Positions 3,146-62,820 of a stretch of 64,000 nt of DNA are shown here, in pieces. The translations under genes and the position numbers were made by a program. The stretch's first letter is position 1; every line of letters begins with the position of its first letter. Location: NCBI GenBank assembly GCA_027491735.1, contig JAOZGP010000006.1:1-64000 (forward strand), given 5' to 3'. This DNA is from Thermoproteota archaeon. GTDB lineage: Archaea > Korarchaeota > Korarchaeia > Korarchaeales > Korarchaeaceae. The notes beneath the pieces are model-generated. The model was not told the origin of the DNA. It worked only from the letters and a program-made list of their open reading frames with translations, and searched no databases.

Positions 3146-3823
3146 ATGGATAGGCCCGTCGTCTACTTTCCGCTGACTATGTTGATAATGCTTCTCCTCT
3201 TCGTTATGCTCCTTCCCCTGGCCATGATAGTCTTCGTGGGCGCTGTCGGAAGGGCCTTCCTCAGGGTTGGGTTAACCCCGGGAGAGACCTTCTTCCTCCT
3301 CATGATGTCCCTCCTCGGCAGTGCTGTCAACATACCCATAGCTGAGAAGGTCACCTACGAAGTGACAACACCGGAACAGAGTCCTCTGCTCTCACTAATC
3401 AACTTCTCACCTATCAGGGTGGAGAGGAGGATAATCCTGGCGGTGAACCTTGGAGGAGCTGTGATACCGACCCTGATATCCATCTACCTGCTCTGGATGG
3501 TTGGGCTCCAGCCCGGCATAGTGATATCGATAATCGCTGTCACAGCGATGTCTTATGCCTTCAGCAGACCCGTCAGGGGTGTTGGTATAACGATGCCTTT
3601 CTTCGTGACCCCTCTGGCCGCTACCCTCTTCTCTCTACTGTTCGCTCATGCTATAGCGGGGATCTGCGCCTACATATCCGGAACGCTTGGCGCCCTCATA
3701 GGAGCTGACCTGCTCAGGCTCAAGGATCTGGAGAGGATAGGAAGCGGTATTGTGAGCATAGGGGGCGCAGGCGTCTTCGATGGGATATTTCTCTCGGGAG
3801 TGTTAGCAGTTCTGTTGAGCTGA
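3146..3823 (+). CDS. DUF1614-family membrane protein
   Basis: SLLGSAVNIP, AVNLGGAVIP, LIGADLL, SIGGAGVFDGIFLSG motifs. Multiple transmembrane (TM) helices. Confidence 0.85.
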   Translation: MDRPVVYFPLTMLIMLLLFVMLLPLAMIVFVGAVGRAFLRVGLTPGETFFLLMMSLLGSAVNIPIAEKVTYEVTTPEQSPLLSLINFSPIRVERRIILAVNLGGAVIPTLISIYLLWMVGLQPGIVISIIAVTAMSYAFSRPVRGVGITMPFFVTPLAATLFSLLFAHAIAGICAYISGTLGALIGADLLRLKDLERIGSGIVSIGGAGVFDGIFLSGVLAVLLS

Positions 3824-7461: not shown

Positions 7462-7663
7462 CGGGATTGTGAGGATGGGGTGGACTGGGGAGCTTGACCG
7501 ATGACTTGAAGGTGCCCTCAGGAAGGCCATCCCATCGAATCCCATGGGAGGCCCTGGACTGTGTGAGAGGAGCTGAGGGAGCGGCTGGTGGCCAAGACTG
7601 ATCTGTTTGATCATCTAGTAGTGTAAATTTTTTAGTGAGATCTTCTCCAATTCGAGATGATCT

Positions 7664-11847: not shown

Positions 11848-12543
11848 ATGCTGAAGTACGTTGGGCTGATCCTTCTGATCGTGGGGCTGGCGTCCTTCGC
11901 TGGAATGTCCCTCATGGAGGGTTCGATCGTTTACAGATCGCAGCTTCTAGAACACTCTCCTCCCATCGTTTTTATCACCAAGAAAAACGGAACGATCAGC
12001 AGCTCCCTTCCCCCATGCAGGACTTTCTATGTGTCATCATGCTTCAAGGTGAGCAGGCTGGAGGGAGTGGAGTTCTACCTCGACCTCGGCGCGCACATAC
12101 CTCCACAACACCCTCCGGTTGGGGGGATATGGGGGTACGTCCTCGACTGCAGCTCGCCGATAGGAATCGCTCAGAACATGAGCCAGTTCCTGGATAGGTT
12201 TCACCTGATGAAGGTGAGGCTCCGTCCCACAAGCGCTGCCTTCACTAGAGGATATGGGGCTCGGATATCCTTGGAGAACTTAACAGAAAGAGAGATCTTT
12301 GTGGTGGTTTATGGGAGGCTGAAAGCCCAGCAAAATCAATCCTGTGTGTTCTCAGAACCTCCGGTAATCCTGGCAGTTGCCCATCCGAGTCGAGGACAGA
12401 AGGTCAGGGTCCTCTACCTGACGGCTGCTGGAGCGCTCCTCCTGGTTCTGCATCACGTGAGAAATCCTGACGAATTCAGGAGATCGGTTGACCGACTTAA
12501 GAAGATGATCCCCAGGTCTAGAAGAAGGTCTTCTCCTCCCTAA
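11848..12543 (+). CDS. hypothetical membrane/secreted protein
   Basis: N-terminal hydrophobic helix and C-terminal TM segment. Confidence 0.65.
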   Translation: MLKYVGLILLIVGLASFAGMSLMEGSIVYRSQLLEHSPPIVFITKKNGTISSSLPPCRTFYVSSCFKVSRLEGVEFYLDLGAHIPPQHPPVGGIWGYVLDCSSPIGIAQNMSQFLDRFHLMKVRLRPTSAAFTRGYGARISLENLTEREIFVVVYGRLKAQQNQSCVFSEPPVILAVAHPSRGQKVRVLYLTAAGALLLVLHHVRNPDEFRRSVDRLKKMIPRSRRRSSPP

Positions 12544-13474
12544 GGATCAAAGCCCACAGGACAAAACTGAACAGGAGGAGAGGTGGGATCAGGTAGTCTG
12601 ACAGGAAAACCTTCTCCTCCACGTACTGGTTGGCCCTGAAACTGACCTTCTGAGTTAGCATCTTGCCCAAACCCCTGGACAGATTCGTCAGCCTGGACAC
12701 CATGGCGCTCACGCTGTTGACCGTGTACTCCCTTCCACCGGTCCTGCTCGCCATGTACTTCGCTTCCTCCTCTCCCCTATCGCCTCCAGGACCTATATAC
12801 AAAACGTAGATAGGTATTTTGTCCTTGCTGAAGTCTTTCAAGAGGACTCTGTACCTCGGATCTGCCGGATAACCATCGGTCACAAATATGAGGGCGCAGG
12901 ACAGGTTGAGATATCTGTAGGGTCTGAGCCAAGAGAGAGCTGTCATCAGAGGATTGGTGTACATTGTTCCTCCGAGCGGTCTCATCTCATCGATGACCCT
13001 GAGGACTGCTTTTCTGTCGCTCGTTATCGGGACCTGATTCACAACGGATCCTGAGAAAGCGATCAGCCCCACATCCACGCTCTCGTTAAGCTCCCTCAGA
13101 AAGTTTCTTAGAGCCTTCTTAGCGGCTTCGATCTTCACTCCTCCAGGGATCCTTTCTCTCATGCTACCGGAGACGTCCACGGCCAGAACAACAGACGGTC
13201 TCCCCAACCTTATGTGAAAACGAAGCTCTTTTGTGGAGTTCAACGCGACCTTCCTCTTCACGTTGATTGTGGGCGAGAGGACCATGGCCACGAGAACCGC
13301 CAACACCACCACCTTGAGCAGGAGCCTTCTCCAATCCATCCTCCTCCTCTGAGGAGGGAGGAACGCCAGTGGATATTCAAACACAAGCGAGGTTCTCAGG
13401 AACTTCACGACCTTGAAGCTCATGACTATGCTCAGAACTCCAGCAGCTAGGACTGCGATCCAGGCGTAATCCAT
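12518..13474 (-). CDS. membrane-anchored VWA-domain protein (BatA-like)
   Basis: MIDAS DVSGSM, GGT, VTDG. Flanking TM helices. Confidence 0.88.
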   Translation of the reverse strand: MDYAWIAVLAAGVLSIVMSFKVVKFLRTSLVFEYPLAFLPPQRRRMDWRRLLLKVVVLAVLVAMVLSPTINVKRKVALNSTKELRFHIRLGRPSVVLAVDVSGSMRERIPGGVKIEAAKKALRNFLRELNESVDVGLIAFSGSVVNQVPITSDRKAVLRVIDEMRPLGGTMYTNPLMTALSWLRPYRYLNLSCALIFVTDGYPADPRYRVLLKDFSKDKIPIYVLYIGPGGDRGEEEAKYMASRTGGREYTVNSVSAMVSRLTNLSRGLGKMLTQKVSFRANQYVEEKVFLSDYLIPPLLLFSFVLWALILREEKTFF

Positions 13475-45506: not shown

Positions 45507-46500
45507 GGAGAAGGTTGAGTTCCTGGAGGAGCTCCTGAGGATCTACAGCCCAAACGGGAGAGAGAAGGAAGTGGCTGAGCTCATCCTTGATGAGCTCAAA
45601 AGGTGCGGGGCTCATGCCTGGATCGATGACGTCGGAAACGTCCTGGCGGAGAAGGAGGGGAATGGGCCATCGATCCTCTTAGCCGGTCACATGGACACCG
45701 TGGCTGGCTTCATACCCGTCAGGATCGAGAACGGATACATCTGGGGAAGGGGGAGTGTGGATGCAAAGGGACCCCTCTCAGCCCTCCTCTTCTCCTTCCT
45801 CGAGTCCGATGGCAACCTGATGTTCGCTGGGCTTGTGGATGAGGAGGGATCATCCAGAGGTGCTAGAAACCTCGAGCTCCCGAGGAGGCCGAATTACATA
45901 ATAGTTGGGGAGCCTAGTGGTCACGACTGTGTCACGATAGGCTACAAGGGGAGCTTGACAGCGAGGTTCAGGGTCGAGGTCGAGAGGTTTCACGAGAGCT
46001 CCTGCATGAAGGGAGCCGCGGAGCTCCTGATCGAGAGGTGGGTGGAGATCAGCAGGGAGTTCGGTGATGGCTTCTACGGACTGAGCGGGAGAATATTGAG
46101 CTTCAATACCTCGGAGGACGAGTTCCACTTCCTTGGGGAGATGGTGGTGAACCTCAGAACTCCTCCAGGCTACAGGCCCCCGGAGGAGTGGGAGATAATC
46201 AGCTTCACGCCTGCCTACGAGGTCTCCCCGAGGAGCGTGCTGGTCAGGACATTTGTGAGGGCCATAAGAAGGATCGGAGCCACTCCCAGATTGAAGAGGA
46301 AGAGCGGGACCGCCGACATGAACATACTCGGCCCAGCCTTCAGTGCTGATTCCGTTGCGTACGGACCGGGCGACTCCAGGCTTGATCACACGCCCCATGA
46401 GCACCTGAGCATAGAGGAGTACCTCATGTCCGTGGATGTGTTGAAGCTTGTCATCGAGGAGCTCTCAAGGGCCCCATCTCAGGCTCAGGCTGTTCACTAG
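45472..46500 (+). CDS. lysK: LysW-lysine/ornithine hydrolase (M20)
   Basis: [41 protein letters not shown]. Confidence 0.92.
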
Positions 46501-47305
46501 CAGCTCTCCTGGCGAGCAGGGAGTTCGCGGCGTACCTGGAGACCGCCGCCACAGCGAGCACGATCACGGAGGACACCGTTATACAGGCCCCAACAGGCCA
46601 GTCGAGTAGATAACTCAGCATCAGACCTGAAAGCGATGAGGAGGATCCTATAATCGGCGATAAGATCATCTGGATGTTTGCTCTCTTGGATACAACCATG
46701 GAGGCTGCCATTGGGTTGTAAAGGAGGGAGAAGACGAGGAAGCCTCCGGTCAGCTTTAAGGTGAGCGCTATGGCCGCCCCGACGAAAAGGAGGATCGCCA
46801 GGATGTGGACCCTGACATCTATCCCCTCAGCCTCAGCGAGCTTCTTGTCGAACAGAATGGCTTCCAGCTGCTCCTTGAAGGAGGTTGTGTAGAGAAGAAA
46901 CGCCGCCAGGACGGATATCATGATGGCCAGCTTCAGGGGGGTCGTAACTAGGACGCTCCCCCAGAGCACAGACGATATCGAGGCTGTGGCCAGGACGGTG
47001 GTGTTCGAGATGTATATCATGAGCAGCGCGATCGCGTTGAATGCTGAGAAGAAGGCCATCGACGCAAGCTCCCTCATCCTGGTGAGACTTCTGAGGGCCA
47101 ATCCCATGAGGAAAGCAAGGCATACCGAAAAGGATGCGGCCGTTAGCGTCATGTCCGTTCCGAGAATCATCGCCAAGGCCGCCCCAGCCAGGGCTGCGTG
47201 GGCCACACTGAAGCAGAGGGTCACCACGCCGAGCCTCTCGACATAATACCCAAGGGTCCCGCACAGGACTCCGGCCAGGATCGAGGCAACTACTGAGAGG
47301 ATCAT
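46451..47305 (-). CDS. metal ABC transporter permease (ZnuB/MntB family)
   Basis: VAHAALAG, AEAEGI (EAA-like) loop, multiple TM helices. Confidence 0.88.
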   Translation of the reverse strand: MILSVVASILAGVLCGTLGYYVERLGVVTLCFSVAHAALAGAALAMILGTDMTLTAASFSVCLAFLMGLALRSLTRMRELASMAFFSAFNAIALLMIYISNTTVLATASISSVLWGSVLVTTPLKLAIMISVLAAFLLYTTSFKEQLEAILFDKKLAEAEGIDVRVHILAILLFVGAAIALTLKLTGGFLVFSLLYNPMAASMVVSKRANIQMILSPIIGSSSSLSGLMLSYLLDWPVGACITVSSVIVLAVAAVSRYAANSLLARRAASEQPEPEMGPLRAPR

Positions 47306-47997
47306 CCCAAGCCTTCCACACGATCTAAGCTTTTAACTCTCCCGTCGCTCATCAGGACAACCCTGTCAGCAAGATCCCTCACCGGGGAGGTGTCGTGACT
47401 CACCATGACAACAGCGGTGTAGCTCTCATCGACCTCGCTCCTCAGCATCTCAGCTATCCTCCTCCTGAATCCTTCATCAAGGCTTGAGAAGGGCTCGTCG
47501 AGGAAGAGAACCCTTGGCTTCCTTATCAGGGCCCTGGCCAGGAAGACCCTCTGCTGTTGTCCTCCACTCAGCGTCCCAATGGGCCTCTTCAGCAGGCGAT
47601 CTATCTCGAGCTCCCTTGTCACCTCTTCAATCACCTCTCGGGGTGGCTGCTCTTTCAGGGATGCCAGGCCAAACCTAATCACCTGCTCGGCCGTGTAGTA
47701 ATCATGAGGAGGTCTCATGAAGTCCTGGGGGACGTAGCTACACTCCTTTCTTGCAGTCATGATCCTCCTGCTGCAGGTGTCCACGCCCAGAAGAAGAGCT
47801 CTCCCCCTGAGGGGCCTGAGAATTCCGAGGCAGGTCTCCACCAGGGTCGTCTTTCCAGCCCCGTTTGGTCCGGTTATCAGGACGAACTCCCTCTTCCTCA
47901 CGGAAAGGAATGCATCTACTATAGCAGGCCTTCCAGACCCGGAGTAAGATACCCAAACCCCGCTCAGAGATACTGCCTCTCCTCCAGGAGGTTCCAA
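47302..47997 (-). CDS. metal ABC transporter ATP-binding protein
   Basis: [36 protein letters not shown]. Confidence 0.92.
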   Translation of the reverse strand: MEPPGGEAVSLSGVWVSYSGSGRPAIVDAFLSVRKREFVLITGPNGAGKTTLVETCLGILRPLRGRALLLGVDTCSRRIMTARKECSYVPQDFMRPPHDYYTAEQVIRFGLASLKEQPPREVIEEVTRELEIDRLLKRPIGTLSGGQQQRVFLARALIRKPRVLFLDEPFSSLDEGFRRRIAEMLRSEVDESYTAVVMVSHDTSPVRDLADRVVLMSDGRVKSLDRVEGLG

Positions 47998-48392
47998 AGG
48001 TCCTCCTCCTCCACGGACCTGGCGGCTTCGTCCATGCCCTCTGCCGCCGAAACCTCCTCTATCCTCCCGGCCACTCCCTTCCTTATCCTCACCTCAAGCT
48101 TCCTCCCATCCCTTCTGTCCTCAAATATGAACTTCATATCCTCAGAGCTTCCATCGATCAGCTTTATGGAGAGCTTGCCGAGGGTGCAGCCCGATGAGCA
48201 TTGTATCCCGTCCAGGGAGCATGTGTAAGGGGTTTTCGCTGGGAGGTAGGCCGTGCAGATCAGGTCGTGCTCGGAAGAAGGTCTGAGGACCTCTCTGGCC
48301 CTCATGCCTATTCTGTACCCAAGGACGAGCCATGGTCCCTTATGTCCATGGAGTCTGGCAGCCTCGTCTAGAGAGAGGCCAAAATTCCCCAG
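47964..48392 (-). CDS. FmdE-family metal-binding protein (probable CTG start)
   Basis: The frame upstream of the track start (48305) encodes EAARLHGHKGPWLVLGYRIG, then CSLDGIQCSSGCTLGK (FmdE HGH..C..C). SD GGAGGTGA lies 6 nt before CTG 48392. Confidence 0.8.
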   Translation of the reverse strand: MGNFGLSLDEAARLHGHKGPWLVLGYRIGMRAREVLRPSSEHDLICTAYLPAKTPYTCSLDGIQCSSGCTLGKLSIKLIDGSSEDMKFIFEDRRDGRKLEVRIRKGVAGRIEEVSAAEGMDEAARSVEEEDLWNLLEERQYL

Positions 48393-48398
48393 AAGAGC

Positions 48399-49373
48399 TC
48401 ACCTCCTCCTTATCAACAGGGCTATGAGCAGCATCACTGCTATCGCCAATGAGATCAGTGCCACAGATCTCCAGATCTCGACCTCATGCCTGAGCTTCAA
48501 GGTGGACTTCACGTAGGACGCCCTTTGAAGACCCCTGGCCAGGAGCTTCGAGTTGTACTTCATGACCTGTGTCATGTTGTTGAGCCCCGGTGCTGTCCCC
48601 GGGAAGTTCGTCATGGCGACCTCGACAGCGCCAACCTCGTCGGCCATCCTCACACCGAGATCGGTCCCGCTCTGGAGGTTGTCTATCACCAGAAGTGCAT
48701 TCTCCTTGGTGGCGTTCTTCACCACCTCTCTGTACTCCTTGGCGGAGACCATCTCAGGAGGCCTGAAGGTCCCCACAACCCTGAACCCCATGTACCTGAC
48801 GAAGGGCTTCTGCCAGATCATGCAGACAACAGGCTTCCCGACAAATCCGTTGCTCCTCGAGTAGTTCTTGAGCCAGGAGCCGGTCTCATCTATGCTCTTG
48901 AGACATCTGCTCAGTCTCAAGCTCAGGTCAACACCGAGCTCCTTCTCAATTACACCAGCAACTCTCTCATACAGGGACTTGAGGTCCTCCGGGGTCGACC
49001 AGGAGCCCTTAACCCTGATCACAGCGGCTTTGGACCCAGACGCCTCCTTAAGATCCTTAATCCAGGGCTCAAAGCCGTGCATCAATATCAGGTCTGCTCT
49101 GCCGAAGATCTCCACATCGCTCGGCCTTATATCGTAGTGCGCTGGGCACACAGACGGGCTGGCGATCACGTACACGTCCACATAGTCTCCGGCCAAGTCC
49201 TCAACCACGCTTCCGAGGACCGTGGTGGTGCACACCACGAGCGGCCTCTTCGGCTCAGCGGACGCTGGCACCAAGGTTCCTGAGGTGAGGATCACCAGGA
49301 CCACTGAGGTCACGAGGACTGTGAGCGCTCCCCTTCTCACGGACATCACCATCGACGGATGATCAATTTCCAT
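48399..49373 (-). CDS. metal ABC transporter substrate-binding protein (cluster A-I/ZnuA-like), C-terminally anchored
   Basis: VVCTTTVLGSVV, CPAHYDIRPSD, ADLILMHG.EPW. Signal peptide and C-terminal TM. Start may be 49351 or 49345. Confidence 0.85.
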   Translation of the reverse strand: MEIDHPSMVMSVRRGALTVLVTSVVLVILTSGTLVPASAEPKRPLVVCTTTVLGSVVEDLAGDYVDVYVIASPSVCPAHYDIRPSDVEIFGRADLILMHGFEPWIKDLKEASGSKAAVIRVKGSWSTPEDLKSLYERVAGVIEKELGVDLSLRLSRCLKSIDETGSWLKNYSRSNGFVGKPVVCMIWQKPFVRYMGFRVVGTFRPPEMVSAKEYREVVKNATKENALLVIDNLQSGTDLGVRMADEVGAVEVAMTNFPGTAPGLNNMTQVMKYNSKLLARGLQRASYVKSTLKLRHEVEIWRSVALISLAIAVMLLIALLIRRR

Positions 49374-49387
49374 CCGTTAAGATTTAA

Positions 49388-49414
49388 GTGTTACTTCTTA
49401 TTACATCATAATAC
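49388..49414. promoter_or_regulatory. NikR-like operator
   Basis: GTGTTA-N15-TAATAC imperfect palindrome abutting the minus-strand TTAAAT box of the metal ABC operon. Confidence 0.5.
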
Positions 49415-49905
49415 AGTCTTGAGAGCTCAATTCCTAGAGGATTGATGGAGGAAGCTCATCAGCGGAGCACCTGCGCGTCAGCTTCACTGTCAGATCACCA
49501 AGTAGCCTCAGATCGTTCCAGAACCGGAATTAACTCAAGGGGTCGCTGAGCTGGAAGCTGTGTTGAATAACGCCTGTAAGGAGGTTCCTGTAGACAACTC
49601 AGTGGGCTGTGGTGGTAGGGGCGGATGTCATAAAAATGGAGTGATCAGGTTTGTCCTCACTCGTAAAAGGACAGAAGGAGAAGAAGGAGAAAGAAGCTGA
49701 AGATGGATTATGTGTTCGCTGTCTATCTCATCTCGAGCTTCTGAACAGCTCCATGATCTCCTTAAGCCGTCGATCCCCCTTTCAATCCTCTTTACATTGA
49801 GACACTGGTTTTCTACAGACTTCATGCAAGCCAACCTTCTCTACACCTTCATCGGAACTGTTCTTTTGATCATAGCTGCTCTCTTCTTTGGGAAGGGAAT
49901 CGGGA

Positions 49906-49929
49906 ATAAATAAAAATAAAAATAAAAAA
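49906..49929 (-). terminator. oligo-T terminator-like tract after the array-embedded gene
   Basis: Minus strand TTTTTTATTTTTATTTTTATTTAT immediately after the stop codon at 49933. Confidence 0.5.
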
Positions 49930-49932
49930 GGA

Positions 49933-50247
49933 TTAAAAGATCCTCCAAGCTTCCTCTTCTGCTTCTTCCTCTTCTTCGTCCTCTTCAAAGAACCTCCATG
50001 TTCCCTTCCGCTCCCACGGAAGGGGCTTCGACTTATTTGATCCATCAGGCTCCGATGCGATCCCCGGCAACAAGCCTCCTCTCTCTGCGTAGTTTCTATA
50101 ACATTCAAAGGAGCAGAAGTGGCTCTCGTCTATGTCTCCGAGGGCACCTCTTCCCTCTCTCACTATTATTACCCTGTCCGGCTCTATCCCGGCTCCACAG
50201 TTGTCGCACACGTACCAGGTCTCTCCAGATATGGTGCGCTTTCCCAT
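49933..50247 (-). CDS. small zinc-finger (TRASH/treble-clef-like) protein with acidic tail, encoded inside the CRISPR array
   Basis: CDNC..HFCSFEC and FFEEDEEEEEAEEEAWRIF. AATATAA box and GGGGGAG SD upstream, T-rich tract after the stop. Confidence 0.75.
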   Translation of the reverse strand: MGKRTISGETWYVCDNCGAGIEPDRVIIVREGRGALGDIDESHFCSFECYRNYAERGGLLPGIASEPDGSNKSKPLPWERKGTWRFFEEDEEEEEAEEEAWRIF

Positions 50248-53200
50248 CTTCTCTCCCCCAACTTATATTCTTGTGGTCAACTTTACTTCCCAACATAGAT
50301 CCTTTCAATCCTCTTTACATTGAGACAAATAAGCTTTTAAAGAGTATAAAAGTATTTCGCAAGTATCTTTCAATCCTCTTTACATTGAGACTTTGTCTGG
50401 CTTTGTTAACCCCCTTCAACTAGGCATGTCTTTCAATCCTCTTTACATTGAGACCTGAAGATCGACGGCGTTGATACAGGCGCCGTTGTCAACTTTCAAT
50501 CCTCTTTACATTGAGACTTGGAGGAGGTGAAACAGCCAGATGACATCCAATTTTGACTTTCAATCCTCTTTACATTGAGACGACATCGTCAAGCCACTTC
50601 AACAGGCTCTCGGCTGGGTCTCTTTCAATCCTCTTTACATTGAGACTAGCACTTCTCCACGAGCTTTTTGGGGAAACATTGGATTTCTTTCAATCCTCTT
50701 TACATTGAGACGAAGATGCTTACCTTCCACGTGGGTGGAAGGTAAGCTACTTTCAATCCTCTTTACATTGAGACCTACCGTTTACAGCGACGTGGATGGA
50801 ACCTTATACGTCTTTCAATCCTCTTTACATTGAGACCTCCGTGGGTTTTACCCTGGACGAGCTCTTTCCAATCTTTCAATCCTCTTTACATTGAGACGCA
50901 GCTAAGGTCCAGCAGGCCATTTCGAAGAAGAGAAGGACTTTCAATCCTCTTTACATTGAGACTTAGCAGTGAAAGACCGAGTTATACAACGTGCATCTCT
51001 CACCTTTCAATCCTCTTTACATTGAGACCGGGAACGAGCTGGAAGTTGATTGAACTTAGACCCTACACCTTTCAATCCTCTTTACATTGAGACAGCGGGC
51101 CCAATTCCCTTTTCCTGTTCAAAAGGGCTGTCTTTCAATCCTCTTTACATTGAGACCCATTGACAACAGGGTTAAGCCTGTCGTAGCGGCCTTAGCTTTC
51201 AATCCTCTTTACATTGAGACCTAGACCATGTCACATTAGCATATATCGTATCTATTGGACTTTCAATCCTCTTTACATTGAGACTACATTTATAGTATTC
51301 TTTCTAATAACAGATTATATGATCTTTCAATCCTCTTTACATTGAGACGATATCTGCATCCTTCTCTTTCTCTTCTTCTACAACTATAAACTTTCAATCC
51401 TCTTTACATTGAGACTTTGATCCAAGGAGCGATTTTCCGTGCTATGCTGTCATCCTTTCAATCCTCTTTACATTGAGACCGAGTTCCGCAGCAGGTACCC
51501 AACAGCGAGTGAAGCAACTTTCAATCCTCTTTACATTGAGACATGTTGTTGTACCTCCGCAGGGTGGCCTCCATGCGGTAACTTTCAATCCTCTTTACAT
51601 TGAGACCCAGCTCTTGGCATGAACTAAACAACAAGGTAGAAAGCTTTCAATCCTCTTTACATTGAGACAAACTCCAGAGGAGGAGGAGAAGGAGAGGAGG
51701 AGAACTTTCAATCCTCTTTACATTGAGACTTTCAGAGAATAAACTGTCTTACTATGAAGTAGAGTCAACTTTCAATCCTCTTTACATTGAGACCGTTCTC
51801 GCTGCTAGAACCATACCTTAAAGCACTCTCCGCTTTCAATCCTCTTTACATTGAGACAGCTTGGATGCAGTGAGAGTCAAGCGAGGAATCTTCTTCTTTC
51901 AATCCTCTTTACATTGAGACTTGGAGACCATATCAGGCAGCAAAGCTTGTCCTATTAAGCACTTTCAATCCTCTTTACATTGAGACGAGCAACCTGGCGC
52001 CGAACCCGGCTCTCAGCTCTATCCCTTTCAATCCTCTTTACATTGAGACATTGAGACAGTGGTTATACCGCGAAACTATACCTGCTGGCACTTTCAATCC
52101 TCTTTACATTGAGACCTGCTGAAGGAGATACTGCCTTCTCCTCTTTTTCATCTCTTTCAATCCTCTTTACATTGAGACTCAAAGTCGAAGCCATTGTGCC
52201 ACACGGGATCCACTTCTCCTTTCAATCCTCTTTACATTGAGACAGAGAGAGGAGCTATTCTGTCTCAGGAAAGGACTGGAACTTTCAATCCTCTTTACAT
52301 TGAGACTCTCGACAGCTTGCCTGTCCACCTCGGCTGTTGCGTTGCCTTTCAATCCTCTTTACATTGAGACCATGGGACTCACTGACTTCGACATCTTCCA
52401 AATAGACTTCTTTCAATCCTCTTTACATTGAGACATTTAAGTGTGTGCATAAAATAGTAGGGTGAGAAAATGGCTTTCAATCCTCTTTACATTGAGACCT
52501 AGGAACTTAGCACGGAATTCTACTAGAACCGGTAAAGCTTTCAATCCTCTTTACATTGAGACCTCCTGATAGCCAACCAACCACACCCTTGTATACATCC
52601 TCTTTCAATCCTCTTTACATTGAGACTTCGAACCCAATCACTATGGACCTCAATAAAGCCGAAATCCCTTTCAATCCTCTTTACATTGAGACAACAATGT
52701 CTACCGGTGGAAGGATGGGGACGCACATAAACTTTCAATCCTCTTTACATTGAGACCCAGTCCTCGAGCTCCATCTTCACCTCCTTGATCTTTTCTTTCA
52801 ATCCTCTTTACATTGAGACAGACTGGCACAATGGCTTCGACTTTGAGACCTGACTCTCCTTTCAATCCTCTTTACATTGAGACCTGCGTGGAGATGAACT
52901 CCTCGAGGATGCCCGGCTTCCGGCCGGGTGGAATGTGCTTTCAATCCTCTTTACATTGAGACCAGAAATGGGGAAATAAAACTTGAGTTTCATGAAGGCA
53001 ACTTTCAATCCTCTTTACATTGAGACATAAAATAGAGGAGAGATCATTTTCAGAAGAAGATATAAGACTTTCAATCCTCTTTACATTGAGACTTACGAAA
53101 AAAAGGATATAGATTTACTCTACGAAAGCGGCTTTCAATCCTCTTTACATTGAGACTAATTACGCTAATGTAAAAGGAAAGGAGCTTGCTCTTACCTTTC

Positions 53201-56200
53201 AATCCTCTTTACATTGAGACTGGGGTACTTATGACCCCGAGACCTCTTGTCGTTTTAGCTTTCAATCCTCTTTACATTGAGACGTATGTTAAGAAGAATC
53301 TGGTAGTCTGCTAAGTTCAGGTCTTTCAATCCTCTTTACATTGAGACTTTTGTTATAATACATCTTTTAAACAACTATTACTGGATCTTTCAATCCTCTT
53401 TACATTGAGACCTCTCAGCGTGGAGATTTCGTTTATCTCCGCAATTTCAGCTTTCAATCCTCTTTACATTGAGACCTATGCTTGGATGAGATCTCTCCCA
53501 AAAAGAGGGATTTTCTTTCAATCCTCTTTACATTGAGACTTAGAACTGGCGGCTTAAGTAAGTTTAAGAGATCAAATCTTTCAATCCTCTTTACATTGAG
53601 ACCCGTGGGCGCCTGGTCGAGGTAGTGTGGGAGGACTATGAACTTTCAATCCTCTTTACATTGAGACTTCAACGAGCCATATTTCTGTATCGAGCTGCCT
53701 GCTATCTTTCAATCCTCTTTACATTGAGACCATGAAGAAATCCAGGCATAATCACGCTCCAACATTTAGCTTTCAATCCTCTTTACATTGAGACTTAAAG
53801 TTTGGAGGGATGGCGATGACTGAGGAAAACTTCCCTTTCAATCCTCTTTACATTGAGACAAAACATTATACTACATCGGAGGCGCTGAGGGAGTTATAGC
53901 TTTCAATCCTCTTTACATTGAGACTGAACTACTACTACAGGGAGATCATGGCTAAAGGGTCTTTCCTTTCAATCCTCTTTACATTGAGACCTTCCATTCC
54001 TGAGCACCAGAACGAGTACATTCAGGATCTTTCAATCCTCTTTACATTGAGACCTAAACACCCTGCTGTGGTCAGGAGATGGGAGCTATTCCTTTCAATC
54101 CTCTTTACATTGAGACCAAAGAGGTAAGATGGGCCCCATGACGGAGAGTATATTCTTTCAATCCTCTTTACATTGAGACTGAAGGTGTGTCCCCGATGCG
54201 AAAAAGTCTACAGTTACATCTTTCAATCCTCTTTACATTGAGACAGACTGAAGGTACTCGCTGTAGTATCTTGCCTTCTTTTCCCTTTCAATCCTCTTTA
54301 CATTGAGACGGACATAACCGACTTCATCCAGAACCTGCCCTCCGAGATCTTTCAATCCTCTTTACATTGAGACTACCTCTAACAGTAATGGCCATAGTCC
54401 TCGGTATTATCGCTTTCAATCCTCTTTACATTGAGACATTACGTTTACATCGCTCAAATTGAAAACACCATATAACTTTCAATCCTCTTTACATTGAGAC
54501 CTCTAATTTCAACATCAGTAAGACCATACGACGAGAACTTTCAATCCTCTTTACATTGAGACGGCCACAGCACCTCCACTATTTTGCCAAACAGAGCGTT
54601 TCTTTCAATCCTCTTTACATTGAGACCAGACCAACTCACCGTATTCAGGCACCGGGGGATCGCACTTTCAATCCTCTTTACATTGAGACGGTGAGAAGCT
54701 GTGGTCCGATTGGGGCCAGCCAATGCGCTTTCAATCCTCTTTACATTGAGACATAAGTCCCTTGGAGAGAGGTCAGGTTGAACCATACATCTTTCAATCC
54801 TCTTTACATTGAGACATGGCACTATACATGATTGTAATGCTCTTTGCTATTTACTCTTTCAATCCTCTTTACATTGAGACCTTAAAAACATAGTGCTTGA
54901 TAACATACGAGAAATAGACTTTCAATCCTCTTTACATTGAGACATTCTCCGCAAGGCCCTGACGAAGGGCCTACCACAGCCCTTTCAATCCTCTTTACAT
55001 TGAGACTTTCCCTTACTGTTGGGATCTCGACGGGGAAGACATCCCCTTTCAATCCTCTTTACATTGAGACAAATCTTAGGGGAAAGAGTGAGCGCTAGCT
55101 GGGGGGTATACTTTCAATCCTCTTTACATTGAGACGAGATGTCACGGGTTCTGTTCAAAGAACCCAGAGCGTTCCCTTTCAATCCTCTTTACATTGAGAC
55201 ACACTAGTTTCCTTCCCTTGTGCGTCATTAAAGAACGTTCTTTCAATCCTCTTTACATTGAGACAGATCGACATCGAGCCAGTTACCTTTTCTGTCCCCC
55301 CTTTCAATCCTCTTTACATTGAGACAAGGAGCCAGTGAGGATATGGCTTGAAAAGAACATTATCTTTCAATCCTCTTTACATTGAGACGCACCGTTTTTC
55401 GAAACTTCAGACATAGTCGATCTTATCTTTCAATCCTCTTTACATTGAGACCTACCTGTGGGTCGGTAGGAGGGAATAGTCCCGAGGACCTTTCAATCCT
55501 CTTTACATTGAGACTAATGTACTGTATTGGAACGCTACCGTTCACGAGAGCGTTCTTTCAATCCTCTTTACATTGAGACTCGACCCCCTCGTTAAGCTGA
55601 GGAGGGGGTGGCTCGTCAACTTTCAATCCTCTTTACATTGAGACTAGTGGAACATGGGGTAGCTATGATCCCGAAACCGACACTTTCAATCCTCTTTACA
55701 TTGAGACTTACTTCCCGCGGGGAAGTGAATACCTTTCATGTCGCATTCTTTCAATCCTCTTTACATTGAGACGTGCCCTACAGGGGGAAAGCTGGCGTAG
55801 AAGTGAGCAAAGCTTTCAATCCTCTTTACATTGAGACTCATTTTGAGGTAATGCAAGCACTTGCCCCTAGGCCACTCTTTCAATCCTCTTTACATTGAGA
55901 CATACCGTGAAATTGAGAACAAATACAAACAGCTCTATTTCTTTCAATCCTCTTTACATTGAGACTCCGGGGAGCTTGCTGAGGTTGTCTGGGAGGACTA
56001 TAACTTTCAATCCTCTTTACATTGAGACGTTAACTTCGTCCCAGCTTTTGGCCGAGATGTGAGTTTCCCTTTCAATCCTCTTTACATTGAGACCAATGTT
56101 GCTATTAGATATTATGTAGTCTATTGCTTTAGATCTTTCAATCCTCTTTACATTGAGACAGAAACAAGATGCCACTCTGCCGTGGACACCGCTAAGATCT

Positions 56201-58909
56201 TTCAATCCTCTTTACATTGAGACGGGTACATACGGTTCCTCCTGGCAAGGCTCAGCTCTCTGCTCTTTCAATCCTCTTTACATTGAGACTAGCGTATCCC
56301 CTTCTTATACTAAAGGCGGTGGAGGATGACTTTCAATCCTCTTTACATTGAGACTAGCACATCTTCCCAGTTTATGCTATCCATCTTCTCACTACTTTCA
56401 ATCCTCTTTACATTGAGACAAAGTACAAGATTGGCCTTTTAACATTACAGGAAGCTGTCTTTCAATCCTCTTTACATTGAGACACCACATATGGCAATTC
56501 GTGTGGGGGCAGCAGGTTCGTCTTTCAATCCTCTTTACATTGAGACGTTTTGACTTTGACCATCGTCAATCGCTTAAAATAGCCTTTCAATCCTCTTTAC
56601 ATTGAGACTTTTAGATTATAGGCTTCAGATCCTCCTTCTTTATCTCCTTTCAATCCTCTTTACATTGAGACGAAGAAATAAAAAACAAAACGGCCGTTGG
56701 GGGCTTCCCAATCTTTCAATCCTCTTTACATTGAGACATGTCCCTCTTCCAATCCTCCAAAGTATAAGCTGAAAGTCTTTCAATCCTCTTTACATTGAGA
56801 CTTGAGGAGAGCCTACGTAAGGGGGCTAAAGGACATTAACTTTCAATCCTCTTTACATTGAGACAAACGGCCAACCCGCCGTATTCAGGCGGTAGAAGAA
56901 AAACTTTCAATCCTCTTTACATTGAGACAAGAGGAGATCAGCTCGTCTTTTGTGTAGTTAGAAATTCTTTCAATCCTCTTTACATTGAGACCGAGGATGC
57001 CCGTCTCCCGAGAGGCTGGAACATAGGGTACTTTCAATCCTCTTTACATTGAGACAAAATAAGTAAAAAGATATATGAGACTAGCGAAAAAGGAAACTTT
57101 CAATCCTCTTTACATTGAGACGTAAGATTTATATATGGCCAAAACACTAATATACTATTGGCTTTCAATCCTCTTTACATTGAGACTTCCAATAAAATAC
57201 ATTGAAGAGCTCACAGAGTATTTTAACTTTCAATCCTCTTTACATTGAGACGTTGCTCCACCTTCCTTATATAACAGCTTCGCTATTAACTTTCAATCCT
57301 CTTTACATTGAGACTAAGTGTGTGCATAAAATAAGTAGGTGGTGAAAACATGACTTTCAATCCTCTTTACATTGAGACTTACTGGCAGGGCTTTCTCTTT
57401 AGGGAGGGGAAGTGAAAACTTTCAATCCTCTTTACATTGAGACCTCCAGCTTATACCCCTTAGCTCAAGGCAAAAGCAGGACTGCTTTCAATCCTCTTTA
57501 CATTGAGACATAAAACCCAAGAAGCTCTGATCTAATTTTTTATTTTTCTTTCAATCCTCTTTACATTGAGACTGAACAAATATATTAAATCGGACACACT
57601 AAACTACATCTTTCAATCCTCTTTACATTGAGACCAGTTACCTTTTCTGTCCCCCGCTCCGCGGGGGTAGAGACTTTCAATCCTCTTTACATTGAGACAC
57701 CTCCATTTACTGCCCACAGCCTGTCATGGGAAGGAGCCTTTCAATCCTCTTTACATTGAGACTCGCTGAAGTGCCTAATGTACTTCAGCCAAGTTAAGAG
57801 CCTTTCAATCCTCTTTACATTGAGACCCAACGAAACTATCTGGATTTACAAAGATATCTTTTACACTTTCAATCCTCTTTACATTGAGACAATTGGAGAG
57901 GAAATAAAATACCTTAAGGACCTCTTCACTTTCAATCCTCTTTACATTGAGACATTCGTTTTGTTGAGAAAGAAATAGGAGAGGAAGAAGGCTTTCAATC
58001 CTCTTTACATTGAGACCGACATTTAAGGTAGGAGACATAGACCCGCTCTCGATATCTTTCAATCCTCTTTACATTGAGACAGGTCCCATAGCCGGCATCA
58101 ATGGATCAACATTGCTGGCTTTCAATCCTCTTTACATTGAGACTTCCATAAGTATAGTGCATTAGGCCAAAGATCGCTGAAGCTTTCAATCCTCTTTACA
58201 TTGAGACAAAAATAAGCGAAGGAAGAAAAGTATTTTCTAAAACACTCTTTCAATCCTCTTTACATTGAGACAGACGATGACTGAGCAAAACTCTTCTTCT
58301 CCTTTTTCTTTCTTTCAATCCTCTTTACATTGAGACATACTCTACCTTCACGGAAAAACAAAAGATGTTTGGGGTCTTTCAATCCTCTTTACATTGAGAC
58401 CTGAGGATTGAGGCAGGACTGGACTCAAACACTTTGGGCTTTCAATCCTCTTTACATTGAGACCGTAGCAATTCTTCCCCTTGAGGACGAGAGGTTCAAA
58501 TCCCTTTCAATCCTCTTTACATTGAGACAAAATTTTGAAATGCCATGCAACTAATTTACCCACTGCACTTTCAATCCTCTTTACATTGAGACAAAAAGTA
58601 AACTTCTTATTTCTCCTGCCTCCTTTTTTCTTTCAATCCTCTTTACATTGAGACTGAAGAACAAGGTTCAGAGCTTCTTAAGGGAAATACACTTTCAATC
58701 CTCTTTACATTGAGACTAAGATGAAGACACAAAAGCACGGGTGAAAAAATGGGAGCTTTCAATCCTCTTTACATTGAGACATCTCTATGAGTGGTGGCCA
58801 GGACAATACCTCATATACGCTTTCAATCCTCTTTACATTGAGACTTAGAGCATAACCCAGAAAGGGTTAGTAAAGGACATGCAGCTTTCAATCCTCTTTA
58901 CATTGAGAC

Positions 58910-59190
58910 ATATAGTACTCTAACAATTATCAAGCTGATTTCATGACTCTTCTGTCCCTTTACTCTTACATCGAAACTAACAAAAACTTTACGTAGAAAG
59001 ACTTATTTGTGATTAGCTGTTTGTTCGAGTAAAAACTTTTGTATGACCAAATCATCTACTTCGAAAGAGGGAAAAGATGCTTAGGATGTTCGAGTCTAAT
59101 TCATCACATAATACTTTATTTTTGGTAAATACACACGTCAGGAGCCCACAAATTTCATTAAAAGATTCGTCCTTCAGTTGGTGGGAGCTG
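58910..59190 (-). promoter_or_regulatory. CRISPR leader / divergent cas1 promoter region
   Basis: AT-rich non-repeat region between the last repeat and cas1. Confidence 0.7.
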
Positions 59191-59193
59191 TCT

Positions 59194-61373
<2,180 letters not shown>

Positions 61374-61399
<26 letters not shown>

Positions 61400-61916
61400 A
61401 GAGGTTGAGGAATACTTCTTCTGCCCGATGCTATTCTACTACAAAAACTTTCTCGGAATGGAGAGGCCTAAGGGCCTCTGGTCCGATCTCGGCAGAGAGA
61501 TACAGGAAGAGATCTCGAAGTTTGTTAGGAGCAAGTTCAAGGTTGTGGACAGTCAGGTACTCCTCAAGAGCGAGAGACTTGGCGTTGTCGGTAAAGTAGA
61601 CTTCCTAGTTGAGGTTGATGGTAAGGTGCTCCCTCTGGAGATCAAGTACAGCAGAAGGATGAGACCCTGGTGGAGGTACACACTGGTCCTCTACGGGATG
61701 CTTCTCGAGGATCTGATAAAGAGACCCGTGAAGTCCGGTTTCCTTCTCCTGAAGAAAAGGATCCTCAGAATCGACTTCAGAGATGAAGACAGGAGGTATG
61801 TCACGCAAGCAATAGAGAAGTGCAGGAGGATAATGAATGGTGACGTTCTACGATCCTTCACCTCTAGGAGCTGTGAGAACTGTGACTTCAGGTCAATGTG
61901 CCTCGATATCAGCTGA
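61374..61916 (+). CDS. cas4: CRISPR-associated Cas4
   Basis: EYFFCP, GKVD, PLEIK, C-terminal CENCDFRSMC Fe-S cysteines. Confidence 0.93.
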
Positions 61917-62820
61917 CAACCTTGTACCACCCAAAGCCAAAGCTACTCCTCTTTCCCACATGAGATAACTGACAGAAGGCCAGAGATTTCCTGATCCATG
62001 AGGTGGGTGCTCCAGAGCAGACCATATCTCCCAAGAGAAAAACTTGTTCTTCCCCCTTATACCTGAACCGTACCTCCCTTAACGAGCTCTCGATGATCTT
62101 GATCCTCTCAGCGCTCTTGAGAACCTCCTCAGCGTTAAACCCCGGCTCTTTCATGAGGTACTGATGATATATTGCTGAGAGCTTCCTCGACATGAAGGAC
62201 ATCAGATCTCTGAAGCTTGGATCTCTTAGAAGCCGCCCTTCTCTGATTAACCTGAAGGGAGTCAGGAACCTCAACATGAACATCCTTCCAATTCTGATCG
62301 AGAGATCTCTCTCTGAGATCCAGCTCCTCGTTTTGTACATTTTTCCATTTTCATAAAATATTTCTCTCTCTCGTCTGAATGGGTTCTCAACAGCAACTCT
62401 CCTCAGGACAAGCCTCCCCTTCTTCCCCTTCACACCAAGACCATGCCTGCACATGTCCTTCACGGCCATGAACAGGGGGTTCTCGAAGGAGACAGCATCT
62501 CCAAAGAGAACTAGGGAGAAGGTGAGTGAATCTCCCTCGGAGAAGTCCATCTCTGATGTGAGAGGGGGTTTTATCACGTAAGGTTTTGTAAAACCACTTA
62601 TCTTCTTGAGAACCAGGCCCTTGGATGGGGTCTTATAGAGGTAGCCGTAAGGGCACCTGAAGATCATTGAACATAGATCGCACTTTCCATCCTCCCTCAG
62701 ACAGAACTTCCTCTTCAGGTGGAGTCCTATGACCCCCCTGATGAGGTTCCCCTTCCAGGGTGGGAGAGTGGCCCTCTCCTCGAACTCAATTTCGAATTTA
62801 TAAAACCTACATATCCTCAA
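61909..62820 (-). CDS. cas6: CRISPR pre-crRNA endoribonuclease Cas6
   Basis: GNLIRGVIG, Cys cluster, FLTPFRL, C-terminal G-loop HVGKRSSFGFG. Confidence 0.9.
   Translation of the reverse strand: MRICRFYKFEIEFEERATLPPWKGNLIRGVIGLHLKRKFCLREDGKCDLCSMIFRCPYGYLYKTPSKGLVLKKISGFTKPYVIKPPLTSEMDFSEGDSLTFSLVLFGDAVSFENPLFMAVKDMCRHGLGVKGKKGRLVLRRVAVENPFRREREIFYENGKMYKTRSWISERDLSIRIGRMFMLRFLTPFRLIREGRLLRDPSFRDLMSFMSRKLSAIYHQYLMKEPGFNAEEVLKSAERIKIIESSLREVRFRYKGEEQVFLLGDMVCSGAPTSWIRKSLAFCQLSHVGKRSSFGFGWYKVVS

What the first reader, a model, noticed from the sequence alone, without database searches (positions are those of the whole stretch)
49779..50326. A complete protein-coding gene held as a 498-bp 'giant spacer' inside the CRISPR array
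Seen: two perfect repeats (49779-49803 and 50302-50326) enclose 498 bp, against about 39 bp elsewhere. The insert holds an intact 104-aa minus-strand ORF (49933-50247; CxxC..FCSxxC zinc finger plus acidic tail) with an AATATAA box, an SD and a downstream oligo-T tract. It has no terminal inverted repeats, and the only flanking duplication is the repeat itself. Established: Cas1-Cas2 integration duplicates the repeat, and Cas6 cuts 8 nt from the repeat end leaving an ATTGAAAG-type handle. Inference: the ORF is co-oriented with the pre-crRNA, so Cas6 would release a roughly 520-nt handle-bearing RNA that is also an mRNA. This would be Cas1-mediated capture of a whole, probably viral, gene. The acidic zinc-finger protein could be a retained regulator, a nucleic-acid mimic or anti-CRISPR-like, but its function is unknown.
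Basis: partly seen in the sequence, partly recalled or inferred. Interest (0 to 1): 0.92.

Follow-up and report, generated by a model that had tools for sequence, protein, structure and literature searches.

The report
Gene-sized pseudo-spacer ending a CRISPR array
The last "spacer" of a 136-repeat archaeal CRISPR array is a 498-bp piece of DNA that carries a complete small zinc-finger gene between two perfect repeats; this rare structure has one published precedent, and how it arose is still unknown.

Summary
One array has 136 identical 25-nt repeats (49779-58909). Of its 135 spacers, 133 are 36-42 nt, one is 54 nt and one is 498 nt (49804-50301).

The AT-rich leader and the cas1-csa1-cas2-cas4 genes (type I-A) lie at the high-coordinate end. 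The 498-bp unit is therefore the terminal, leader-distal unit, not an internal one.

Its 104-aa minus-strand ORF is a real gene:
- It has two relatives (79% and 58% identical in the three-way alignment) that keep the four Cys, a PW.R motif, the acidic tail and a C-terminal W.
- Its codon usage is host-like.

The family has only three members in 5.8 billion protein clusters. It was not found in 42 other genomes of the phylum or in the virus and plasmid collections searched.

The AATATAA box lies only 16-22 nt before the ATG, too close for a canonical archaeal promoter. The Shine-Dalgarno-like motif and the T-tract terminator are well placed. Expression, if any, would most plausibly ride on the pre-crRNA. 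This is inference; no RNA data could be obtained.

Sulfolobus islandicus LAL14/1 has a published equivalent: SiL-E1, a ~2-kb, five-ORF plasmid fragment lying exactly between two repeats of a type I-A array.

Verdict: a second example of a rare known kind, with donor, origin and function unresolved. Viral origin and Cas1 capture are not shown. No sequencing run was listed, so no reads could be laid on the junctions.

The parts
49779..49803 (-). Terminal (leader-distal) CRISPR repeat, a perfect copy
   Evidence: 0 mismatches; orientation
49804..50301 (-). 498-bp pseudo-spacer, the last unit of the array; single copy in the genome
49905..49929 (-). Oligo-T tracts (U6-A-U5-A-U5-A-U3) starting 3 nt after the stop codon; a likely archaeal intrinsic terminator for the ORF and for the pre-crRNA (inference)
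   Evidence: sequence; the function rests on general knowledge of archaeal oligo-T termination
49933..50247 (-). 104-aa ORF: a four-Cys zinc-finger domain (CxxC...HFCSxxC), a linker, and an acidic C-terminal tail ending in WRIF
50253..50259 (-). Shine-Dalgarno-like GGGGGAG, with GGAG 5 nt before the ATG
   Evidence: sequence
50263..50269 (-). AATATAA box, 16-22 nt before the ATG; too close to act as a canonical TATA box for this start codon
   Evidence: sequence; the znuA promoter of the same contig, for comparison, has its TATA-like box at least 33 nt before the likely start
50302..50326 (-). Penultimate repeat. Cas6 cleavage 8 nt from its 3' end would leave ATTGAAAG plus a 54-nt 5' UTR on the ORF RNA (inference)
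   Evidence: cas6 gene; the cleavage position is from general knowledge, not tested
50327..58909 (-). Remainder of the array: 134 spacers of ordinary or near-ordinary length (133 of 36-42 nt, one of 54 nt) and 134 further perfect repeats
58910..59190 (-). AT-rich leader; the repeat-proximal motif ATATAGTACTCTAACAAT is shared with a relative's mini-array leader
59077..61916 (+). Type I-A adaptation genes: cas1, csa1, cas2, cas4
   Evidence: Pfam E-values 2e-66, 2e-65, 3e-15, 5e-13
61909..62820 (-). cas6
   Evidence: PF10040, E 5e-12

Best explanation
The 498-bp segment is a gene-sized 'pseudo-spacer'. It is a piece of accessory, probably mobile-element-derived DNA that occupies a spacer position at the leader-distal end of a type I-A array, precisely between two intact repeats.

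The most likely origin is a repeat-preserving, CRISPR-linked route. Two versions are possible. In the first, the Cas1-Cas2 integrase acted ectopically at the then-terminal repeat and integrated an unprocessed long DNA, which duplicates the repeat. In the second, recombination with an element already matched by the resident terminal spacer(s) replaced them with the intervening element DNA. Both were proposed for the only published equivalent, SiL-E1. Either route would bring in the small zinc-finger gene as cargo.

In its present place the gene has no promoter at canonical distance. If it is expressed, it is expressed as the tail of the pre-crRNA. Cas6 would cut in the upstream repeat and leave an 8-nt handle, a 54-nt UTR with a Shine-Dalgarno motif, and the ORF. 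The T-tracts after the stop would end the transcript before the terminal repeat. Trimming of the same handle-bearing RNA could also give an ordinary-length crRNA against the donor.

Shown here: the structure, its position and orientation, that the gene is real, and its rarity. Inferred: the route of entry, the transcript and its processing, and any function.
For: 1. Exact spacer-like geometry.
- Both flanking repeats are perfect, and identity between the two ends stops one base outside the repeat on each side.
- There are no terminal inverted repeats and no other target duplication.

2. The unit is unique.
- 133 of 135 spacers in this array are 36-42 nt.
- None of 674 spacers in the arrays of three relatives with the same repeat family exceeds 80 nt.

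3. The array orientation is fixed.
- The leader and the cas1-csa1-cas2-cas4 genes lie beyond 58909.
- A relative has the same leader motif next to the repeat and the same arrangement next to cas1.
- The ORF is on the crRNA strand.

4. The ORF is a real gene.
- Two relatives, 79% and 58% identical in the alignment, keep C14, C17, C45, C49, H43, PW.R, the acidic tail and the C-terminal W.
- The codon-usage score is at the 74th percentile of host gene windows. The other five frames score far lower.

5. The gene is accessory and rare.
- It was found in 0 of 42 other genomes of the phylum and 0 of 40 relatives.
- Only 3 proteins match in 5.8 billion clusters, with a single-sequence query or a profile. 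Only 2 true relatives appear among 1.84 billion representatives.
- The insert is single-copy in its own genome.

6. It is not a conserved neighbour of the adjacent znuA operon. No repeat or ORF relative lies beside the znuA orthologue in any of the 4 loci examined.

7. Repeated sampling of the same foreign regions. Three pairs of this array's spacers overlap by 19-24 nt. This makes two neighbouring spacers against one element plausible.

8. Precedent. SiL-E1 in S. islandicus LAL14/1 is about 2 kb with 5 ORFs and comes from a pING1-like plasmid. [quoted passage not shown]

9. Expression signals. The AATATAA box is centred about 19 nt before the ATG, GGAG lies 5 nt before the ATG, and T-tracts start 3 nt after the stop.
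Against: - No donor was found. There was no protein match in IMG/VR viral contigs, phage records, plasmid records, GTDB species genomes or JGI metagenomes. The repeat itself is not in IMG/VR.
- None of 808 spacers (134 own, 674 from relatives) matches the insert beyond 17 nt, and that match lies in the A-rich tract.
- The composition is host-like rather than spacer-like. ORF GC is 52.6%, the genome 49.5% and the ordinary spacers 44.6%.
- The system's length ruler is otherwise strict. The position is also leader-distal, opposite to normal Cas1-Cas2 polarity.
- The genome is a metagenome-assembled genome (41 contigs, 88% complete), and no reads could be laid on the junctions.
- There are no transcription data of any kind.
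Confidence: 0.45

Rival explanations
1. A small DNA segment or mobile cassette carrying the gene inserted into the last ordinary spacer, without any CRISPR machinery. The route would be illegitimate recombination, or a transposition type that leaves no inverted repeats. The outermost bases of the 498 bp would then be remnants of that spacer.
For: - There are 54 nt before the ATG and 129 nt after the stop that match nothing, so up to about 39 nt of spacer remnant could hide there.
- Mobile elements in or beside archaeal CRISPR-cas loci are described in the literature (introduction of PMC3973734, passage read).
- Lone copies of this repeat family occur outside arrays in 2 relatives, one of them inside a tRNA gene cluster. 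This shows that repeat-bearing DNA moves in this lineage.
Against: - The insert has no terminal inverted repeats, no target-site duplication, and no transposase or integrase.
- It is single-copy in the genome and has no copies in 42 related genomes.
- The sub-terminal regions show no significant hairpins (z-scores -1.05 and +1.16).
Confidence: 0.2
2. The gene is resident DNA at the array's trailer. The repeat at 49779 is an orphan left by array decay or rearrangement, for example the remains of a longer or second array trimmed by repeat-repeat recombination. On this reading the gene could be a TRASH-like metal-binding partner of the neighbouring znuA-fmdE-ABC transporter operon.
For: - Codon usage and GC are host-like.
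- The gene lies on the same strand as, and directly upstream of, a ZnuA / FmdE-domain / ABC ATPase operon.
- The C-x2-C...C-x3-C motif with FCS resembles metal-binding TRASH / zf-FCS fingers (resemblance recalled, not tested).
- A degenerate, inverted repeat-like 25-mer lies at 49424-49448 (17 of 25 matches; 11 of 2000 shuffles reach this). This hints at older array debris in the flank.
- Orphan repeats exist in relatives.
Against: - The gene is absent beside the znuA orthologue in all 4 loci examined, and from 42 genomes of the phylum.
- No TRASH, YHS or zf-FCS Pfam model matched at E <= 1.
- The insert has no leader-like motif next to the terminal repeat.
- No known process creates a perfect repeat copy 498 bp beyond an array without an insertion or a deletion inside an array. 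This reading therefore largely collapses into the others.
Confidence: 0.2
3. Assembly artefact: the assembler joined unrelated pieces of a metagenome through the 25-nt repeat.
For: - The genome is a metagenome-assembled genome of 41 contigs.
- CRISPR arrays are classic places for misjoins.
- No run was listed, so no reads could be examined.
Against: - The insert would have to abut a repeat at both ends in real reads for any assembler k-mer longer than 25.
- The array lies inside a 121-kb contig with unique flanks on both sides.
- The identical protein is on record on 4 contigs of the protein collection. Their independence is unknown.
Confidence: 0.07

Closest known systems
SiL-E1 pseudo-spacer in CRISPR_2 of Sulfolobus islandicus LAL14/1 (Jaubert et al. 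2013, Open Biol, PMC3718332; passages read)
   Same: - Gene-bearing DNA far longer than a spacer lies precisely between two complete identical repeats.
- The repeat ends in ATTGAAAG.
- Both hosts are hyperthermophile-type archaea with type I-A cas genes.
- There are no attachment sites or inverted repeats.
- The element is not found in related genomes.
- The mechanism is unknown.
   Different: - SiL-E1 is about 1.9-2 kb with five ORFs. It has an identified donor (82% identity to pING1-like conjugative plasmids, collinear up to the repeats). It is followed by further spacer-repeat units, so it is internal.
- Here the segment is 498 bp with exactly one complete gene, and no donor is known.
- It is the terminal, leader-distal unit.
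- The gene is co-oriented with the crRNA, and a terminator follows it.
Canonical Cas1-Cas2 spacer acquisition (type I-A with Csa1 and Cas4)
   Same: The repeat is duplicated exactly, there is no other scar, and the adaptation genes are present next to the leader.
   Different: The length is 498 nt against 36-42 nt for 133 of 135 spacers. The position is leader-distal. No protospacer or PAM could be examined.
Insertion of IS elements, MITEs or toxin-antitoxin cassettes in or beside archaeal CRISPR loci (mentioned in PMC3973734, passage read)
   Same: Non-spacer DNA with coding capacity interrupts or adjoins an array.
   Different: There is no transposase, no inverted repeats, no duplication other than the repeat, no second copy, and no toxin-antitoxin signature.
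Small zf-FCS / MYM / TRASH-like and DUF7576 zinc-finger proteins
   Same: A four-Cys C-x2-C...(H)FC-x3-C pattern in a protein of about 100 aa. The nearest language-model clusters are small viral hypothetical proteins and MYM-type proteins.
   Different: No Pfam model reaches its threshold: DUF7576 scores 23.1 bits against a cut-off of 27. The Cys spacing is x27. The conserved PW.R motif and the acidic W-ended tail have no named counterpart.

Membership tests
Canonical CRISPR spacer (Cas1-Cas2 acquired) | Lies between two intact direct repeats, with the repeat as the only duplication | tested here: met
Canonical CRISPR spacer (Cas1-Cas2 acquired) | Length within the system's ruler range | tested here: not met
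   498 nt; 133 of 135 spacers are 36-42 nt and one is 54 nt
Canonical CRISPR spacer (Cas1-Cas2 acquired) | Matching protospacer with a PAM in a foreign element | tested here: inconclusive
   No donor was found in viral, phage, plasmid, genome or metagenome collections, so the PAM cannot be read
Gene-sized pseudo-spacer (SiL-E1 type) | DNA much longer than a spacer, carrying ORF(s), precisely between two complete identical repeats of an array | tested here: met
Gene-sized pseudo-spacer (SiL-E1 type) | Similarity to a known plasmid or virus extending up to the repeats | tested here: not met
   No similar sequence in any collection searched
Gene-sized pseudo-spacer (SiL-E1 type) | Absent from related genomes | tested here: met
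   0 of 42 other genomes of the phylum. No conspecific strain was available, so this is weaker than the strain comparison made for SiL-E1
IS / MITE / transposon insertion | Terminal inverted repeats or sub-terminal hairpins, a target-site duplication, a transposase, and multiple copies | tested here: not met
DUF7576 (PF24461) | Score at or above the Pfam gathering cut-off (27 bits) | tested here: not met
   23.1 bits; 24.3 bits in the genome scan; the relatives score 18.2 and 16.5 bits
TRASH / zf-FCS (MYM) zinc finger | Match to the family models; C-x2-C-x19-22-C-x3-C spacing (spacing recalled from memory) | tested here: not met
   No such Pfam family at E <= 1. The spacing here is C-x2-C-x27-C-x3-C. 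The FCS motif is present
Type I-A CRISPR-Cas locus | csa1 together with cas1, cas2 and cas4 next to the leader; cas6; repeat ending in ATTGAAAG | tested here: met
   and the sequence. Interference genes beyond 63.6 kb were not examined

The most novel reading that the evidence does not exclude
The terminal unit is not debris. It is a maintained, array-embedded gene whose mRNA is produced from the pre-crRNA by Cas6 cleavage, giving an RNA with a crRNA 5' handle that is also translated. This would tie synthesis of a small acidic zinc-finger protein to array transcription, with possible roles as a regulator or a nucleic-acid mimic. The relatives of the gene would then also lie between CRISPR repeats. 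One relative was called on a 644-bp contig, about the size that an assembler breaking at repeats would leave, but this is only a lead.
Probability: 0.1. Interest if true: 0.85.

Novelty: new member of a known kind. Interest (0 to 1): 0.5.

Why it matters
Gene-sized inserts that sit exactly like spacers are very rare. My literature searches turned up one described case, from 2013, and its mechanism is still open.

A second case in a distant archaeal lineage shows that the phenomenon is not a one-off of one Sulfolobus strain. It is smaller (one complete gene), and its ends are cleanly defined.

It offers a compact substrate for two questions. Can type I-A adaptation proteins, or spacer-guided recombination, place long DNA between repeats? 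Can such a unit still yield a working crRNA, or even an mRNA?

It is also a practical warning for array-calling software, which splits or truncates arrays at such units.

Tried and rejected
Reads and expression. The look-up of sequencing runs listed no run, DNA or RNA, for 49300-50800 ('none was listed'). Read laying could therefore not be used. Junction support and expression remain untested.

Donor search. All of the following were negative:
- Viral contigs by protein and by repeat pattern;
- Genome contigs by protein and by alignment;
- Metagenome contigs by alignment;
- phage and plasmid records by tblastn.

Truncated second gene. The + strand frame is open for 35 codons from the insert edge and looks like a membrane helix. 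No paralogue exists in the genome, and no longer protein matched it (weak evidence, 3 candidates only). The idea is left open and not used.

Second array with its own leader. The insert has no leader motif next to the terminal repeat. Rejected.

Half-repeat at the ORF stop (49925-49939, 13 of 15 matches). At full repeat length it is 15 of 25, within the shuffle range (95th percentile 16). Treated as chance.

Structure. The AlphaFold2 model built on the 3-sequence alignment had mean pLDDT 45. It was too poor for fold searches, so none was run.

PDB and long-protein hits. These are C2H2 / KRAB zinc-finger arrays that match through a 'GE..Y.C..CG' resemblance. All 3 of the 3 long hits I checked are of this kind. 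The other 32 long hits were not checked. Rejected as relatives.

Metal-transport partner idea. The znuA orthologue loci lack the gene (0 of 4).

PADLOC: no match.

Literature. Searches gave nothing relevant. led to PMC3718332. Searches found no other paper using 'pseudo-spacer' in this sense or citing SiL-E1 by name within the held library. Supplementary files were not consulted.

Taxon. From memory I guessed that the small phylum (43 species genomes) might be Korarchaeota. I used that word only as a literature search term. No call establishes it.
Full report
WHAT IS THERE

The window is part of a 121-kb contig of a metagenome-assembled archaeal genome (41 contigs, 1.36 Mb, 88% complete). The genome has a single CRISPR array. 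The array has 136 copies of CTTTCAATCCTCTTTACATTGAGAC, all on the + strand and all without a mismatch, from 49779 to 58909. Shuffled sequence gives none.

The 135 inter-repeat stretches have these lengths:

| Length (nt) | Count |
|---|---|
| 36 | 3 |
| 37 | 7 |
| 38 | 37 |
| 39 | 47 |
| 40 | 27 |
| 41 | 11 |
| 42 | 1 |
| 54 | 1 |
| 498 | 1 |

ORIENTATION AND POSITION

The reverse complement of the repeat ends in ATTGAAAG, so the crRNA strand is the minus strand. Beyond the repeat at 58885-58909 lie about 280 bp of AT-rich leader, then cas1, csa1, cas2 and cas4, with cas6 and an HD-domain gene next. This is a type I-A adaptation module.

A relative with the same repeat family (G013) has the same motif directly next to its first repeat (ATATA..ACTCTAACAAT), followed by a cas1-like reading frame.

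The 498-bp unit is therefore the last, leader-distal unit of the array.

On its other side lie 405 bp of unassigned DNA. After that comes a minus-strand operon for a ZnuA-like binding protein, an FmdE-domain protein, an ABC ATPase and a fourth ORF at 46451-47305, taken to be the permease but not scanned against Pfam.

THE GENE IS REAL

The ORF at 49933-50247 (-) encodes 104 aa with pI 4.5.

Homologues:
- A search of 5.8 billion protein clusters returned the ORF itself (on record on 4 contigs, the longest being this one) and two relatives of 92 and 102 aa. These are 79% and 58% identical in the alignment.
- A profile of the three found nothing more.
- An exhaustive HMMER scan of 1.84 billion representatives found the same two relatives.
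- Its other 35 hits are long multi-repeat proteins. The three I checked are KRAB / C2H2 zinc-finger arrays that match through a linker-like resemblance (the same applies to the PDB hits).

Conserved features in the three-way alignment:
- M1, Y12-I21 (YVCDNCGAGI), H43-F44-C45 and C49 are invariant.
- A PW.R motif, acidic residues and a Trp four residues from the end are also kept.
- The linker between the finger and the tail varies. This is the pattern of a protein under constraint.

Codon usage matches the host. The mean log synonymous-codon score is -1.06, against -1.12 +/- 0.09 for 5000 host-gene windows of 104 codons (74th percentile). The other five frames score between -1.23 and -1.50.

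Family assignment is weak:
- DUF7576 stays below its threshold in all three proteins.
- There are two weak PHROG hits of unknown function (E 5e-4 and 1e-3).
- PADLOC gave nothing.
- The nearest language-model clusters are small viral hypothetical proteins and MYM-type finger proteins (scores 0.92-0.93).
- The AlphaFold2 model was unusable (pLDDT 45).

I call it a four-Cys, FCS-type zinc-finger protein with an acidic, aromatic-tipped tail. Its biochemical role is unknown.

EXPRESSION SIGNALS

Read on the minus strand, the 54 nt between the repeat and the ATG end in GAATATAAGTTGGGGGAGAGAAG-ATG.
- GGAG lies 5 nt before the ATG, a good Shine-Dalgarno spacing.
- The AATATAA box occupies -22 to -16 and is centred about 19 nt before the ATG. 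Archaeal TATA boxes are centred about 26-27 nt before the transcription start (established knowledge). This box would start transcription inside the ORF, so it cannot serve a Shine-Dalgarno-led mRNA.
- For comparison, the TATA-like box of the znuA gene on the same contig, conserved in G019, lies at least 33 nt before its likely start codon.
- Nothing better placed is visible in the 54 nt.
- Three nucleotides after the stop come U6-A-U5-A-U5-A-U3, a typical archaeal oligo-T terminator.

The most economical reading is that the ORF is transcribed as the tail of the pre-crRNA. Cas6 would cut in the repeat at 50302-50326 and free its 5' end, leaving the 8-nt handle and the 54-nt UTR. The T-tracts would end it before the terminal repeat. 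All of this is inference. No RNA or DNA run was listed for the locus.

ORIGIN

The insert is single-copy in its genome, also at low stringency.

The protein was not found in:
- 40 relatives (two junk hits with internal stops);
- 42 other genomes of the phylum, searched with the alignment;
- the GTDB species genomes;
- JGI metagenomes;
- IMG/VR;
- phage records and plasmid records.

Further tests:
- The repeat is not carried by any IMG/VR contig.
- The arrays of G003, G013 and G019 use the same repeat family (1-2 differences). They share no spacer with this array, and none of their 674 spacers is longer than 80 nt.
- None of 808 spacers matches the insert beyond 17 nt.
- The znuA orthologues in G019 and in three metagenome loci have neither a repeat nor a relative of the gene beside them. 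The gene is therefore not a conserved part of that operon.
- The insert has no terminal inverted repeats, no duplication other than the repeat (27 nt identical, one extra base on each side; chance about 7%), no notable end structures, and no leader motif.

Taken together, this is a lineage-specific accessory segment placed exactly like a spacer, with an unidentified donor. Its host-like composition argues neither for nor strongly against a mobile element adapted to this host.

PRECEDENT

Jaubert et al. 2013 (PMC3718332; abstract and passages read) describe SiL-E1 in S. islandicus LAL14/1:
- It is a 1.9-2-kb 'pseudo-spacer' with five ORFs, 82% identical to pING1-like conjugative plasmids.
- It is absent from other strains, and its similarity to the plasmid runs up to the repeats.
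- They wrote that such large spacers had not been described before.

I found no later paper naming SiL-E1 or using 'pseudo-spacer' in this sense in the held library. The present case is the same kind of object.

MECHANISM: BEST ACCOUNT AND RIVALS

I favour a CRISPR-linked, repeat-preserving route (0.45). Both versions explain two intact repeats with nothing else at the junctions.
- In the first version, Cas1-Cas2 acted at the terminal repeat and integrated an unprocessed long fragment.
- In the second, a double crossover through the terminal spacer(s), which matched an element, replaced them with the element's intervening DNA.
- The second version gains some plausibility from three pairs of overlapping spacers elsewhere in the array (19-24 nt shared). 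These show repeated sampling of the same foreign regions.
- Against the first version stand the otherwise strict length ruler and the leader-distal position.

Rivals:
- Plain insertion into the last spacer, with spacer remnants hidden in the unmatched ends (0.2).
- Resident DNA beside an orphan repeat left by array rearrangement (0.2). One oddity supports this: a degenerate repeat-like 25-mer in inverted orientation at 49424-49448 (17 of 25 matches; 11 of 2000 shuffles reach this). Lone repeats also exist in relatives.
- Misassembly (0.07). This cannot be excluded without reads. It is unlikely, because both junctions would need read support at any k-mer above 25.

FUNCTIONAL CONSEQUENCES (INFERRED)

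In type I-A and type III systems, crRNA 3' ends are trimmed after Cas6 cleavage (established knowledge). The handle-bearing RNA could therefore still yield an ordinary-length crRNA from the first ~40 nt of the insert. The unit could then remain a working spacer against its donor.

The T-tracts would also shield the znuA operon from array read-through.

Whether the protein is made and does anything is open. The boldest reading is an array-embedded gene expressed through Cas6 processing and kept by selection. I put it at about 10%. The 644-bp contig of one relative is compatible with repeat-bounded assembly, but that is only a lead.

VERDICT

The finding is a new member of a rare known kind. Interest is moderate (0.5). 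It is a clean second example that makes an old open question testable, but it rests on one assembled contig, with no reads, no donor and no expression data.

Noticed in passing
window 49424-49448: A degenerate repeat-like 25-mer in inverted orientation (AGCTCAATTCCTAGAGGATTGATGG) matches the crRNA-sense repeat at 17 of 25 positions. Only 11 of 2000 shuffles of the 405-bp flank reach this. It may be debris of an older or inverted array, and it lies just upstream of the znuA promoter.
   Followed up: partly
window 52179-52218 / 52820-52858; 52435-52473 / 57315-57353; 55265-55300 / 57635-57673: Three pairs of spacers in the same array overlap by 19-24 identical nt, one pair on opposite strands. 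The same protospacer regions were therefore sampled repeatedly.
   Followed up: no
window 52884-52937: One spacer is 54 nt, well outside the 36-42 nt range of the other ordinary spacers.
   Followed up: no
L024 (G019) 12506-12585 and 7472-7497: In a relative's 113-repeat array the last, leader-distal spacer is 80 nt and one internal spacer is 26 nt. The terminal repeat is perfect there too.
   Followed up: no
L021 (G013) 2818-2842; L023 (G002) 3583-3607: Lone copies of the repeat family occur outside arrays. One sits between tRNA genes. The other is preceded by a leader-like motif (GTTAGAGTATAA), that is, a leader with a single repeat.
   Followed up: partly
window 49806-49913 (+): A + strand frame is open for 35 codons from the very edge of the insert and encodes a membrane-helix-like peptide that ends at the shared AT-rich tract. 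It could be the 3' end of a truncated convergent gene. No relative was found.
   Followed up: partly
window 47964-48305 (-): An FmdE-domain gene lies inside the ZnuA / ABC-ATPase operon next to the array trailer.
   Followed up: no
window 49779-58909: All 136 repeats are identical, including the terminal one. No degenerate trailer repeat is present.
   Followed up: yes
ORF residues 3-60 (window 50068-50241, -): The N-terminal 'GETWYVCDNCGAG' resembles the eukaryotic C2H2 linker-finger consensus closely enough to pull KRAB / PRDM9 zinc-finger arrays at E down to 1e-32 in large searches. This is a trap for automated annotation.
   Followed up: yes
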